DNA from: Octopus sinensis
Lineage: Eukaryota
Assembly (NCBI RefSeq): GCF_006345805.1
Contig: NW_021836003.1
Location: 1-25,860 of the forward strand
Length of the DNA: 25,860 nucleotides
Direction: 5' to 3'
Shown: piece after piece, positions 8,117-21,400 of the stretch
Position numbering within the stretch: the first letter of the stretch is position 1
Layout of the letters: each line of letters begins with the position of its first letter
Position numbers: made by a program

Positions 8117-9004
8117 TTTCATCATCGTCATCATCGTCATCATCTCAAGATGCCATTGCAAGTGAAGCCTTTAAATTGTCTGAAACAGCTGTAGTCTAAG
8201 ACAATGTTTTTGTTTTTTTTTATTTCAGATCGTATCGACTGGTTAAAGCGCAATGGATTTCACCCCAACAAAAGAGTCTGAGCGCACAGTTTCGGTGGAA
8301 TACACGCCGCCAACACCTCCGTTAACGCCACAAAAACACAAACAACTGAACAGTTCTTTGAATGTGAAGTATCCTGTCATCTGTGCTTCTAGAAGCCAAG
8401 TCGAGGTGCGTATGTCTCTCTTTACTCTTTTACTCTTTTATTTGTTTCAGTCATTTGACTGCGGCCATGCTGGAGCACCGCCTTTTAGTCGAGCAAATCG
8501 ACCCCGGGACTTATTCTTTGTAAGCCCAGTACTTATTCTATCGGTCTCTTTTGCCGAACCGCTAAGTAACGGGGACGCAAACACGCCAGCATCGGTTGTC
8601 AAGCAATGCTAGGGGGACAAACACACACACAAATATATATATACATATATACGACAGGCTTCTTTCAGTTTCCATCTACCAAATCCACTCACAAGGCTTG
8701 GTTGGCCCGAGGCTATAGTAGAAGACACTTTCCCAAGATGCCACGCAGTGGAATTGAACCCGGAACCATGTGGTTGGTCAGCAAGCTACTTACCACACAG
8801 CCACTCCTGCGCCTATATACATTTTTTTTGTTTATGGGCCCTTTTCAAGGCTCAGGTTCATGGGCCCGGTTTCCCGGTTTCTGTGGCGCATGTTTTTATT
8901 TTTGTCTTTTTTTAGTTTTTTTTTTTTTGCAAGGTGAAGAACATTAAGAGTATAAGGGGAATATATTTACTTTCATATTTCACCCACGGTTCGGTTTTGT
9001 GGTT

Positions 9005-9070
<66 letters not shown>

Positions 9071-18400: not shown

Positions 18401-21400
18401 GCACAGACTTGTCTATATGTATGTGTATGCATATAAATATAATACCTACACTTATATACACACACTCATATATATATATGGCGCAGGAGTGGCTGTGTGG
18501 TAAGTAGCTTGCTAACCAACCACATGGTTCCGGGTTCAGTCCCACTGCGTGGCATCTTGGGCAAGTGTCTTCTGCTAAAGCCCCGGGCCGACCAAAGCCT
18601 TGTGAGTGGATTCGGTAGACGGAAACTGAAAGAAGCCCATCATATATATATATGGCGCAGGAGTGGCTGTGTGGTAAGTAGCTTGCTAACCAACCACATG
18701 GTTCCGGGTTCAGTCCCACTGCGTGGCATCTTGGGCAAGTGTCTTCTGCTAAAGCCCCGGGCCGACCAAAGCCTTGTGAGTGGATTTGGTAGACGGAAAC
18801 TGAAAGAAGCCCATCATATATATATATGGCGCAGGAGTGGCTGTGTGGTAAGTAGCTTGCTAACCAACCACATGGTTCCGGGTTCAGTCCCACTGCGTGG
18901 CATCTTGGGCAAGTGTCTTCTGCTAAAGCCCCGGGCCGACCAAAGCCTTGTGAGTGGATTTGGTAGACGGAAACTGAAATAAGAGTGTCGTATATATGTA
19001 TATATATACATATATATATATGTGTGTGTGTGTGTGTGTTTGTGTTTCTGTGTTTGTCCCCCTAGCATTACTTGACAACCAATGCTGGTGTGTTTACGTC
19101 TCCGTAACTTAGCGGTTCGGCAAAAGAGACCGATAGAATAAGTACTAGGCTTACAAAGAATAAGTCCTGGGGTCGATTTGCTCGACTAAAGGCGGTGTTC
19201 CAGCATGGCCGCAGTCAAATGACTGAAGCAAGTAAAAGAGTATATATATAATGTGCACTAACCTTATTCTCGTTTTCCATGTTTTTTCTTTTATTTCCTC
19301 ACTGTCCAGCGTCTTGTTTGTTTGTTTGTTTTTTAACATATATAACACTAGCAGTATCGCCCGGCGTTGCTCGGGTTTGTAAGGGAAATAACTATATAAG
19401 CATTTTTAGAGAGTTATAGCCAAAAAATAGCAAAAAAAGCATTAAAAATGGAAAAAAAATTATGGTAATAAATTTTTAAATCGTTGACTCGTCGTAGACA
19501 TTTTTAGAGAGTTACTTCCCTTATATAATAGCGAAAAAAATGCATTGAAATGGAAAAAAATGATGATAAATTTTTTTTAAATCGTAGACTCATCGTAGAC
19601 GCGCGCGCTAATACCCAGAAGAGCTCGATATGAATCACGACTATAAGATACCCGGTTTTGGTTAAACTGCACCGCAAAATGTGGGAGTAGTTAGGAATCT
19701 AAATCGTAGGAGACAGACACACAACCTTGCTTTTATATATATATATAACATAAACAGAGCCTGAAAGATTAATTTAAGTTACATGGCGTACTTTATAAAT
19801 ATGCTTATTCAAATATCATAAAACCATAAAACAATTAGTAACTCTTTGGGTTGTGTATTAAATAGATGTGTATGTGTGTTTTCTCTGCGCGTATGTGCGT
19901 GTCTGTACATCGCTAGCCGCTACACACATTTTTTTCTCTCCTTGTTTTTTTCTGTGTCCCTTTCTGTAGAAGAGCGTAGGCTCGAAACGTAAAAGACTTT
20001 TTTCAATTCCTGAGCGTTATACTAATACATGTTTGCTTTGTACACCACCTGTCTTCGTCTTTTGTGCTTTTCTTTTCGTAAACTCTCCCTATGTATATAA
20101 TACTTGATATCAGCTAAAAGTAGTACCTTGCTTTTTTCTCCCCCTGATCAGAAACAAAACACAGCTCCACTGACGGCGAAGCGAGCCACTGCTGTCATCA
20201 TTTCCCTGATGACCATCGTTTACTCTACCCAGAATCCCCATCATCATCATCCTCTTCCGGCAGCCAACACCGTAGATCTCATTACGAAAGCAGCGACGCT
20301 CACTTCACATTTAGCGGTAGATCACCGTCTTCGCAGCTCCAAGGCCCACCATTGCCGCCTTGCAACTGTTGTACAGGAAGGTGCAGCGTGTCACATCATC
20401 CCAACAGTCGTTGTTGTCTACAGCGTTATCATTCAACTTCTGCTGCCTATTCACAGGATGACACTTACAGTAAGTAACCAATATATCTTTCCTTCTTCCG
20501 ATACCAAATCATCTTAGATTGTATCTTCAGCCTCTGCTACGCAAAACTGTACATTTTAAAATCATCGTGCTTGAATTTTATCCTTCCTTCATAATTTTAA
20601 GAGCCTAATGAAGTTGAAACTGCATAGTGAGTATATATGAGGAGTTATTTATATTAAAATTAATACACTTCACCGGTTTCACATGCGTGTGATTTTCAAA
20701 AGTGTAAATTTTGAAAATCAACCGATTATGAAACCGATTAAGAGTATTAATTACATTATAAATAAATAGGTGCAGGCATGGGTGTGTGGTAAAAAGCTTG
20801 CTATCCAACCACTTAGTTCCATATTCAGTCCCACTGCGTGGCACCTTGGGCAAGTGTCTTTCCCTATAGCCTCGGCCCGACCAGCACCCCTCGTGTATAT
20901 ATATATATATATTAGAAGGTTTGGAGGTGATGTATAGGTATTATATATTAGAAGAAATATGGTATTCAGAAATCTGGATGGTTTTATATTTACAGATTTT
21001 TATTAATACGTCACATGTTTTTATAAATCATTTATTAGCGCTTGCATCTATTCTAGTAGAATCTTCAGATTTGAATATATATATATATATAAAATAAATA
21101 AATATATATATATATATATGTACACGCATATATACTTACACACATATATATACACACACACATGCACACACACGTATGATTATACACACATATGCACACC
21201 CATATTGGCAGTATTAATTTCTTGTCACATTTGCGAACGCCACTGTATTATTTTCTCTTTTCATTGCAGATATATGACAGAGAAGGAACCGAAAAGGGAT
21301 TTTCCCCTAATAACTTATGAGGATCTCGTTGGGCAGCTGAGCTGGAATTATCTGGGAGTAATGGGGTAAACTCGAGAGGTAACTGGGTTTAACTGGAATT

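What the first reader, a model, noticed from the sequence alone, without database searches (positions are those of the whole stretch)
8253..21277. Apparently domain-less 821-aa protein combining PIP-like, RxL, Fbw7-type and CDK motifs
Seen: six phase-compatible exons (2466 nt). QTSITQYM (13052-13075) resembles the p21 PCNA-binding QTSMTDFY; AKRRLF (18165-18182) matches the p107 cyclin-docking motif; TPPTPPLTPQK (8304-8336) resembles the Myc TPPLSP phosphodegron; full CDK sites TPTK, TPQK, SPQK, SPSR, TPSK, SPSR, TPVK; basic NLS-like PPKRKAK and KRNRKRP. No kinase, phosphatase or CKI domain seen. Inference: lineage-restricted disordered nuclear cell-cycle regulator or scaffold. Short motifs arise by chance in S/P-rich proteins.
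Basis: partly seen in the sequence, partly recalled or inferred. Interest (0 to 1): 0.7.

Follow-up and report, generated by a model that had tools for sequence, protein, structure and literature searches.

The report
Cephalopod-only disordered protein with conserved docking motifs
This is a real octopus gene for a fold-less, serine/proline-rich protein found only in octopuses, squids and cuttlefish, whose few strictly conserved short stretches look like the docking and destruction signals used by cell-cycle proteins, though no binding has been tested.

Summary
Six exons with canonical AG/GT borders sum to 2466 nt. Each exon's in-frame translation sits in order in XP_029657567.1, "uncharacterized protein LOC115231760 isoform X1" of Octopus sinensis, 821 aa. 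All quoted motifs are at the quoted coordinates.

No Pfam family, PDB relative or Atlas lead was found. Two AlphaFold runs gave mean pLDDT 39.8 and 41.0 with almost no secondary structure.

A profile search of 1.84 billion representative proteins found four hits. With the word-index searches, every named relative is an octopod or a cuttlefish; the unnamed ones align closest to the cuttlefish.

Conservation is concentrated in seven invariant islands. Only 3 of 7 full CDK sites and one of two NLS-like clusters are conserved.

"Lineage-restricted and disordered" is supported. "Functional short motifs" is supported by conservation. "Cell-cycle regulator binding PCNA, cyclin and Fbw7" remains inference. 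The PIP-like box is non-canonical (Met at position 8, no degron features). The gene is already annotated but uncharacterised. Interest is moderate.

The parts
8253..8405 (+). Coding exon 1 (51 codons), start ATG at 8253. A pyrimidine tract plus AG just upstream (about 8228) suggests a further non-coding 5' exon (inferred).
   Evidence: in-frame stop at 8244-8246; donor GT; translation found at position 0 of P0010.
8301..8336 (+). YTPPTPPLTPQK: cluster of three Thr-Pro sites. It is the longest invariant island. TPPLTP fits the TPPx[ST]P form of the Cdc4/Fbw7 phosphodegron, and PLTP fits a Pro-x-Thr-Pro MAP-kinase site (both consensus forms recalled).
   Evidence: 10-residue invariant run at residues 17-26; only 3 of 811 windows of 11 residues are as conserved. 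TPP.[ST]P in shuffles P=0.013.
11774..11966 (+). Coding exon 2 (193 nt). The ATG at 11783 is the start of predicted isoform X2 (767 aa), which lacks exon 1 and therefore lacks the TP cluster.
12867..13993 (+). Coding exon 3 (1127 nt, 375 in-phase codons). The ATG at 12869 is the start of predicted isoform X3 (705 aa).
12914..12940 (+). TFKLQDPPK: 9-residue invariant island matching no motif I could name. It is followed by a basic stretch (KRKAK in octopods, GRIK/GKVK in decapodiforms).
13031..13075 (+). SPSRAKS-QTSITQYM: an invariant full CDK-consensus site (SPSR) three residues upstream of the PIP-like box Q-x-S-I-T-Q-[YF]-M. The flanks carry net charge +2 to +3 and no acidic residue.
   Evidence: Passages of PMC6881253 for the PIP definitions.
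13166..13186 (+). SPCTPSK: invariant double Ser/Thr-Pro site that includes a full CDK consensus (TPSK).
13271..13291 (+). KRNRKRP: basic NLS-like cluster. K..RKR is invariant in all four orthologues.
13469..13480 (+). SPRL: invariant island (SPRLxK).
13745..13993 (+). Most extended conserved block: F.HS.S.L.P....H.P....P..FP..STF...YD..G.YR.D ... GK...RR.SNK...R.R..D...W. It includes a basophilic-kinase type RRxS site and matches no known family.
   Evidence: There is a small pLDDT rise only in the corresponding part of P0008 (block 461-470, mean 65).
17532..18198 (+). Coding exon 4 (667 nt). It is S/P/Q-rich and poorly conserved except for RRKxP, FP and the motif below.
18165..18182 (+). AKRRLF: cyclin-docking (RxL/Cy) type motif, G-x-A-[KR]-R-R-L-F in all four orthologues. 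One to three [ST]P sites lie 20-54 residues upstream in each.
   Evidence: Passages of PMC4231158.
20152..20469 (+). Coding exon 5 (318 nt). Reading through its donor gives ...DDTYSK-stop, the same ending as the Argonauta orthologue (...DDSYSK).
20190..20423 (+). Conserved Cys/His positions (C..H.....H...Y ... PC.C ... C.Q). This is a possible small metal-binding element, but it is not predicted to fold.
21270..21277 (+). Coding part of exon 6 (8 nt: completes Asn, then Ile, then TGA). The rest would be 3' UTR. This is the weakest part of the model.
   Evidence: No support from orthologue alignment.

Best explanation
Shown:
- LOC115231760 of Octopus sinensis is a real six-coding-exon gene.
- It encodes an 821-aa protein with about 33% Ser+Thr+Pro that has no detectable domain and is predicted to be disordered throughout.
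- Relatives were found only in coleoid cephalopods.
- Sequence constraint is concentrated in a handful of short islands.

Inferred mechanism: the protein works as a string of short linear motifs and is a substrate or adaptor of proline-directed kinases. The steps, all inferred, are:
1. The C-terminal [KR]RRLF docks on the hydrophobic patch of an A/E-type cyclin. This brings CDK to the conserved Ser/Thr-Pro sites (TPxK at 25, SPSR at 171, SPCTPSK at 216-222, SPRL at 317).
2. Q-x-S-I-T-Q-[YF]-M, with its positive flanks, docks in the PIP pocket of PCNA. Phosphorylation of the adjacent SPSR would lower the flank charge and weaken this contact.
3. The N-terminal TPPTPPLTP, once doubly phosphorylated (priming at the +4 Thr, then GSK3-type phosphorylation), serves as an SCF-Fbw7 degron. 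Predicted isoforms X2 and X3 lack it and would then be stable.
4. K..RKR takes the protein into the nucleus.
For: Gene reality: canonical splice sites, and an exon-by-exon match to XP_029657567.1. Orthologues of 809-882 aa occur in Argonauta hians, Acanthosepion (Sepia) pharaonis and an unnamed record set. Some of these come from roughly 3-kb contigs that hold the whole ORF, which I read as transcripts.

No domain or fold:
- Pfam gave 0 significant families for 7 exon-level translations and 3 full-length orthologues.
- The PDB profile search gave 0.
- AlphaFold on P0008 gave mean pLDDT 39.8, with 769 of 821 residues below 50 and one 6-residue helix.
- AlphaFold on the window's exon-3 protein gave 41.0, with 346 of 375 residues below 50 and no secondary structure.
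- Mean hydropathy is below the Uversky boundary in 4 of 4 orthologues.

Restriction: the profile search of 1,835,955,588 representatives returned 4 proteins at E<=0.001. The word-index searches returned 4 and 6. Every named one is an octopod or a cuttlefish.

Motif constraint:
- 174 of 821 positions are invariant.
- There are 7 invariant runs of 4 or more residues, against a mean of 1.27 in shuffles; 0 of 2000 shuffles reach 7.
- The runs are YTPPTPPLTP, TFKLQDPPK, SPSRAK, SITQ, SPCTPSK, SPRL and RRLF.
- Ser/Thr before Pro is kept as Ser/Thr in 15 of 33 cases, against 31 of 154 for other Ser/Thr.

Literature (passages only):
- PMC6881253: the canonical PIP is Qxx[LMIV]xx[aromatic][aromatic]. 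43% of 77 confirmed PCNA binders lack one aromatic. Positive flanks raise affinity, and negative flanks argue against binding. Here the flanks are +2 to +3.
- PMC4231158: an RRLFQ motif binds the cyclin A2 hydrophobic patch. A bulky hydrophobic residue at +1 or +2 after RxL is the working criterion. RxL proteins with CDK sites behave as substrates.
- PMC3001421: GSK3 phosphorylates the central Thr/Ser of the CPD in Fbw7 substrates.
Against: - No binding, localisation or expression datum exists.
- The strict PIP pattern has 0 matches. Position 8 is Met in all four orthologues. The degron features (Asp at position 6, K/R at +4) are absent.
- Only 3 of 7 full CDK sites are kept in all four orthologues (positions 25, 171, 219). 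TPTK, SPQK, SPSR-598 and TPVK are not.
- PPKRKAK is invariant at only 3 of 7 positions.
- There is no KEN, D-box or LxCxE.
- TFKLQDPPK and the 83-residue block at the end of exon 3 are as conserved as the named motifs and fit none of the proposed partners.
- PLTP equally fits MAP kinases (recalled consensus).
- The alignment has four sequences across a single deep split (two octopods, two decapodiforms).
- The shuffle statistics use patterns chosen after the fact.
- The AlphaFold alignments were shallow (6-7 rows), which by itself lowers confidence scores.
Confidence: 0.35

Rival explanations
1. It is a signalling-regulated nuclear co-regulator or scaffold unrelated to the cell cycle, for example in neurons. 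On this reading the conserved Thr/Ser-Pro islands are MAP-kinase/GSK3 sites, RRLF and Q.SITQ[YF]M bind partners other than cyclins and PCNA, and the resemblances to p21, p107 and Myc are convergent or coincidental.
For: - PLTP within the top-conserved island fits the Pro-x-Thr-Pro MAP-kinase preference (recalled).
- The PIP-like box is non-canonical, with 0 strict matches.
- Conserved islands with no cell-cycle reading exist: TFKLQDPPK, DDFxDLNM, the exon-3 end block and RRxS.
- There is no KEN or D-box.
Against: Three independently chosen cell-cycle-type motifs all fall within the seven invariant islands. A full CDK consensus is invariant directly beside the PIP-like box. RRLF is a form shown to bind cyclin A2 (PMC4231158 passages).
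Confidence: 0.25
2. It is a fast-evolving orthologue of a known metazoan disordered regulator whose sequence has drifted beyond what HMMER can detect. On this reading it is not truly cephalopod-specific.
For: Disordered proteins lose detectable similarity quickly (general knowledge). Octopod and decapodiform orthologues are already only 33-38% identical. The Nautilus and other molluscan genomes could not be searched at the DNA level with the tools at hand.
Against: A 772-position profile that includes several invariant islands found nothing outside the family among 1.84 billion representatives at E<=0.001. There was no Pfam, PDB or Atlas lead.
Confidence: 0.12
3. It is a conserved disordered protein whose islands serve a role outside motif-partner docking, such as phase separation, chromatin or RNA association, or metal binding through the C-terminal Cys/His positions. 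The named motifs would then be incidental.
For: 28 Cys and 36 His in 821 residues, with several invariant Cys/His positions. The largest conserved block is unexplained.
Against: Conservation lies in short discrete islands, not in composition. The Cys/His region shows no predicted fold.
Confidence: 0.15
4. It is an annotation artefact: a chance set of open frames in repeat-rich DNA.
For: The window is dense in microsatellites and SINE-like repeats, and many spurious ORFs exist. The coding part of exon 6 is only 8 nt.
Against: All splice sites are canonical and in phase. Orthologues with the same order of conserved islands exist in at least four other coleoid records at 33-91% identity.
Confidence: 0.02

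Closest known systems
p21/CDKN1A C-terminal module (PIP box plus nearby cyclin-docking motif)
   Same: QTSITQYM compared with the p21 box QTSMTDFY (peptide as printed in PMC6881253) is identical at positions 1, 2, 3 and 5 and conservative at 4 and 7. Both have positively charged flanks, sit in a disordered context, and share a protein with an RxLF-type motif.
   Different: No CDI domain (Pfam). Position 8 is Met, not aromatic. Gln replaces Asp at position 6. There is no K/R at +4, so it is not a PIP degron by the definition in PMC6881253. The protein is five times longer, and no homology was detected.
RxL/Cy cyclin-docking motifs
   Same: [KR]RRLF is invariant at RRLF. It has the bulky hydrophobic residue directly after RxL that PMC4231158 uses as its criterion, and an RRLFQ motif there binds the cyclin A2 hydrophobic patch. 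Ser/Thr-Pro sites lie upstream, as in substrates.
   Different: Binding is untested.
Cdc4/Fbw7 phosphodegrons of c-Myc and c-Jun (TPPLSP; recalled)
   Same: TPPLTP has Thr at position 0 and Thr-Pro at +4, and sits in a 10-residue invariant island near the N-terminus. GSK3-dependent CPDs are described in PMC3001421.
   Different: Phosphorylation and Fbw7 binding are untested. There is no other Myc or Jun similarity, and the site also fits MAP kinases.
Lineage-restricted disordered CDK regulators (yeast Sic1, Drosophila Roughex) and the Cdt1 N-terminal regulatory region (all recalled)
   Same: Domain-less or regulatory disordered segments that combine cyclin docking, multiple CDK sites and degrons. 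Cdt1 also combines a PIP motif with a Cy motif.
   Different: No sequence relationship. No evidence here of CDK inhibition or of a licensing role.

Membership tests
CIP/KIP CDK inhibitors (p21/p27/p57) | N-terminal cyclin-CDK inhibitory (CDI) domain recognisable by Pfam | tested here: not met
   No Pfam family for any exon translation or for 3 full-length orthologues at E<=1.
Canonical PIP-box proteins | Q-x-x-[LMIV]-x-x-[aromatic]-[aromatic] (PMC6881253) | tested here: not met
   Positions 1, 4 and 7 fit, but position 8 is Met in 4 of 4 orthologues. The strict pattern has 0 matches. The paper reports that 43% of 77 confirmed binders lack one aromatic, so failing this test does not exclude binding.
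PIP-degron (CRL4-Cdt2 substrates) | TD at positions 5-6 and K/R at +4 after the box (PMC6881253) | tested here: not met
   TQ rather than TD. The +4 residue is S, P, S and S in the four orthologues.
PCNA partners in general | Physical binding to the PIP pocket of PCNA | not testable with these tools
RxL/Cy cyclin-docking motif carriers | [RK]-x-L followed by a bulky hydrophobic residue at +1 or +2 (PMC4231158) | tested here: met
   RRLF is invariant in 4 of 4 orthologues. This is a sequence criterion only; binding is not testable here.
Fbw7/Cdc4 phosphodegron carriers | Thr-Pro at position 0 with Ser/Thr (or Glu) at +4, preceded by hydrophobic residues or Pro (consensus recalled) | tested here: met
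   PPTPPLTP is invariant in 4 of 4 orthologues; TPP.[ST]P matches once. Phosphorylation and binding are not testable here.
CDK substrates | Conserved full-consensus [ST]-P-x-[KR] sites | tested here: inconclusive
   There are 7 sites in O. sinensis (shuffle P=0.0074), but only 3 of 7 are kept in all four orthologues.
Any curated protein family or solved structure | Significant profile match | tested here: not met
   Pfam gave none. The PDB gave 0 at E<=10. The best Atlas score was 0.75, to a bacterial hypothetical cluster, which is below lead level.

The most novel reading that the evidence does not exclude
Coleoid cephalopods evolved their own PCNA-tethered, cyclin-docked and Fbw7-degraded disordered S-phase regulator. 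It would be a functional analogue of the p21 or Cdt1 regulatory modules with no homologue elsewhere. Alternative first exons would give degron-bearing and degron-less isoforms.
Probability: 0.2. Interest if true: 0.6.

Novelty: new variant of a known kind. Interest (0 to 1): 0.35.

Why it matters
The cell-cycle core is ancient, but its disordered regulators turn over quickly between lineages. A cephalopod-only protein that keeps a cyclin-docking motif, a PCNA-type box with an adjacent CDK site and an Fbw7-type degron across the octopus-squid split would be a clean natural example of regulatory wiring rebuilt from short motifs. It would also give a handle on proliferation control in animals known for regeneration and large nervous systems.

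If the motif readings are wrong, it is still a conserved orphan protein with two strongly constrained elements of unknown function (TFKLQDPPK and the block at the end of exon 3). The gene model itself is already in RefSeq as uncharacterised, so what is new is the interpretation and the conservation evidence for it.

Tried and rejected
- Complex prediction of the PIP-like segment (residues 40-95 of the exon-3 protein, with alignment A4) against an archaeal PCNA reference as stand-in (collected). The tool did not fold it, because it does not pair a eukaryotic chain with a microbial one. PCNA binding stays unchecked.
- ESM Atlas with the exon-3 protein: best score 0.75, to a bacterial hypothetical cluster, which is no lead.
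- PDB sequence profile search: 0 hits at E<=10.
- Rfam at gathering threshold over the whole window: 0. ARAGORN: 0 tRNA genes.
- Paper searches for LOC115231760, LOC106874485 and six protein accessions: 0 papers each. Supplements are not covered by that search.
- The alternative frame of exon 6 (YMTEKEPKRDFPLITYEDLVGQLSWNYLGVMG) has no Pfam hit and is out of phase with exon 5. I rejected it.
- The alternative exon-1 donor at 8363/8364 (GTGAAG) is also in phase 0, but the database model uses 8405/8406.
- A Pfam hit to Dpy-30 on a translated SINE-like repeat has 0 stretches passing on their own. I treated it as spurious.
- Candidate known identities considered from memory and dropped for lack of any profile hit: Cdc25 N-terminal region, Cdt1, sororin, Emi1, ESCO2, GTSE1 and DNMT1/POLD3-type PIP carriers.
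- Not done: searching with the joined 821-aa model. Searches used exon translations and orthologues only.
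Full report
**1. What is in the window**

The window is repeat-rich, AT-biased animal DNA with no N. A protein search with the translation of the largest open exon returned [quoted passage not shown] at 100% identity. This record is listed as encoded on a 25,860-base contig, the length of the window. The 90% cluster of that record also holds:
- isoform X1 (XP_029657567.1, 821 aa);
- isoform X3 (705 aa);
- an Octopus vulgaris fragment.

**2. Check of the gene model**

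I worked out the exons from the sequence: 8253-8405, 11774-11966, 12867-13993, 17532-18198, 20152-20469 and 21270-21277.
- They sum to 2466 nt.
- All five internal acceptors are AG and all five donors are GT.
- The phases are compatible.
- For exons 1 to 5 the in-phase translation is an exact substring of the 821-aa record, at positions 0, 51, 116, 491 and 714.

All searches used single-exon translations or orthologues. The database records of the spliced protein were used by id, for comparison and for one exact cluster look-up.

The weakest part of the model is exon 6, which codes for only 8 nt. Reading through the exon-5 donor instead gives ...DDTYSK-stop (ORF ending at 20477). That is the same ending as the Argonauta orthologue...DDSYSK. 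Only the last two residues depend on this choice.

The predicted isoforms differ at the N-terminus. X2 starts at the ATG at 11783 and X3 at the ATG at 12869. Both therefore lack exon 1 and its Thr-Pro cluster.

**3. No domain and no fold**

- Pfam found nothing significant in any exon translation. It also found nothing in the full-length orthologues from Argonauta and Acanthosepion or in an unnamed decapodiform-like record. The only row was DUF2476 at E=0.59, far below its cut-off.
- A profile of the family found no PDB chain at E<=10.
- The ESM Atlas gave no lead; the best score was 0.75.
- AlphaFold2 on orthologue P0008 (821 aa, 7-row alignment) gave mean pLDDT 39.8 and pTM 0.21. 769 of 821 residues were below 50, and there was a single six-residue helix.
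- AlphaFold2 on the window's own exon-3 protein (375 aa, 6-row alignment) gave mean pLDDT 41.0, with 346 of 375 residues below 50 and no secondary structure. The shallow alignments lower confidence on their own.
- Composition agrees with disorder. Ser+Thr+Pro make up 0.29-0.36 of residues, mean hydropathy is below the charge-hydropathy boundary in 4 of 4 orthologues, and there is no hydrophobic segment.

**4. Taxonomic range**

- A 772-position HMM was built from three orthologues plus the window's exon translations. It was run against 1,835,955,588 representative proteins and returned four proteins at E<=0.001. They are the Argonauta and Acanthosepion proteins, a partial Octopus bimaculoides protein (LOC106874485) and a 219-aa fragment that aligns with the decapodiform sequences.
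- The word-index searches returned 4 proteins (658-2000 aa) and 6 proteins (20-1544 aa).
- Every named hit is an octopod or a cuttlefish. The unnamed ones (Logan and ENA records) are 69-73% identical to each other and to the cuttlefish protein.
- No fused or longer form carrying a domain appeared.
- Nautilus and non-cephalopod molluscs gave nothing.

**5. Are the motifs more than chance?**

*Shuffles.* I ran 5000 composition-preserving shuffles of the 821-aa record.
- Seven or more full CDK sites occurred with frequency 0.0074.
- TPP.[ST]P occurred with frequency 0.013.
- A relaxed PIP pattern occurred with frequency 0.089.
- [RK].LF occurred with frequency 0.16.
- All three motif types together occurred in 0 of 5000.

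The patterns were chosen after seeing the sequence, so these figures are generous.

In a four-sequence alignment (O. sinensis, Argonauta and two decapodiform proteins; 38-55% identity to the octopus protein), 174 of 821 positions are invariant.
- TPPTPPLTPQK is invariant at 10 of 11 positions; 3 of 811 windows do as well.
- QTSITQYM is invariant at 6 of 8; 29 of 814 windows do as well.
- AKRRLF is invariant at 5 of 6; 29 of 816 windows do as well.
- Invariant positions form seven runs of four or more residues: YTPPTPPLTP, TFKLQDPPK, SPSRAK, SITQ, SPCTPSK, SPRL and RRLF. Shuffles give a mean of 1.27 such runs, and 0 of 2000 reach seven.
- Nine of 33 [ST]P dipeptides are kept in all four sequences. 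Ser/Thr before Pro is kept as Ser/Thr in 15 of 33 cases, against 31 of 154 for other Ser/Thr.

PPKRKAK is invariant at only 3 of 7 positions, whereas K..RKR within KRNRKRP is kept.

**6. Reading the motifs**

I read passages, not whole texts, of three papers.

*PMC6881253.*
- It defines the canonical PIP box as Qxx[LMIV]xx followed by two aromatics.
- It defines the PIP degron by TD at positions 5-6 plus K/R at +4.
- It reports that 43% of 77 confirmed PCNA binders lack one of the two aromatics.
- It reports that positive flanking charge raises affinity over four orders of magnitude, and that negative flanks argue against binding.

The octopus box has Q1, I4 and Y/F7, but Met at position 8 in all four species. 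It has TQ instead of TD and no basic residue at +4. Its seven-residue flanks carry +2 to +3 and no acidic residue. It is therefore a plausible but non-canonical PCNA-pocket ligand, and it is not a CRL4-Cdt2 degron by definition. An invariant SPSR sits three residues upstream, which suggests a phospho-switch on flank charge (inference).

*PMC4231158.*
- It shows an RRLFQ motif binding the cyclin A2 hydrophobic patch.
- It uses a bulky hydrophobic residue at +1 or +2 after RxL as its criterion.
- It distinguishes RxL proteins with CDK sites (substrates) from those without (inhibitors).

The octopus [KR]RRLF fits the criterion, and one to three [ST]P sites lie 20-54 residues upstream in each orthologue.

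*PMC3001421.* It describes GSK3 phosphorylating the central Thr/Ser of Cdc4 phosphodegrons in Fbw7 substrates, including Myc and Jun. PLTP also fits MAP kinases (recalled).

**7. What remains unexplained**

These elements are as conserved as the named motifs, and I could not assign them:
- TFKLQDPPK;
- DDFxDLNMxSP;
- the 83-residue block at the end of exon 3 (F.HS.S.L.P ... STF ... YD..G.YR.D ... RR.SNK ... W);
- RRKxP;
- the scattered invariant Cys/His positions in exon 5.

Decapodiform proteins carry an extra IYMKNCTK segment at the exon 3/4 junction.

**8. Verdict**

- "Lineage-restricted and disordered" stands.
- "Acting through short motifs" has good support from conservation.
- The cell-cycle assignment and the three named partners are reasoned inference. 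I put the confidence at about 0.35.

The gene is already annotated but uncharacterised, and I found no paper naming it. I file it as a new variant of a known kind: motif-driven disordered regulators such as the p21 C-terminus, the Cdt1 N-terminus or Sic1 (these comparisons are recalled).

Still unchecked are PCNA, cyclin and Fbw7 binding, RNA-seq support, expression pattern, synteny outside coleoids and any supplementary tables.

Noticed in passing
window 12329-12619 (+), inside intron 2: A 96-aa open frame that looks like the C-terminal part of a mariner-type transposase. The Atlas feature search put it at 0.95-0.96 next to clusters named 'MOS1T transposase (Fragment)' and 'putative SETMR methyltransferase (Fragment)'. 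Pfam found nothing at E<=1. It is probably a decayed transposon remnant.
   Followed up: partly
window 18466-18983 (three tandem copies, 99-100% alike) and 9 further places of 115-168 bases between 1823 and 25823, on both strands: A repeat unit of about 160-174 bp occurs in at least 12 copies at 83-100% identity. It generates many of the spurious ORFs that translate to ...RGYSRRHLPKMPRSGTEPGTMW... It looks like a SINE, but ARAGORN and Rfam found no tRNA or other RNA family in it. One copy lies just after exon 1 (8657-8822) and one in intron 5 (20757-20883).
   Followed up: partly
window 10796-11700 (intron 1): A tandem array with a 190-bp unit: four copies plus a partial fifth at 87-94% identity. 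A weaker 69-bp match lies on the other strand at 25399-25467.
   Followed up: no
window 7626-8115: A 490-bp (ATT)n microsatellite of 163 copies ends about 140 bp upstream of the start codon at 8253. Long (TATG)n and (TGTG)n arrays also fill much of intron 3 (14148-14476, 15385-15582, 16922-17490), the last ending about 40 bp before exon 4.
   Followed up: no
window 20470-20477: The exon-5 donor GTAAGTAA, if read through, gives Ser-Lys-stop. The protein would then end ...DDTYSK, like the Argonauta orthologue (...DDSYSK), rather than ...DDTYNI as in the RefSeq model. This is a possible alternative or more ancestral 3' end.
   Followed up: partly
orthologues P0008, P0009 and P0034, alignment columns about 590-597 of A4: Decapodiform proteins have an extra eight-residue segment, IYMKNCTK (IYKKNCTK in P0034), exactly at the position of the octopus exon 3/4 junction. 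This suggests a micro-exon that octopods lack.
   Followed up: no
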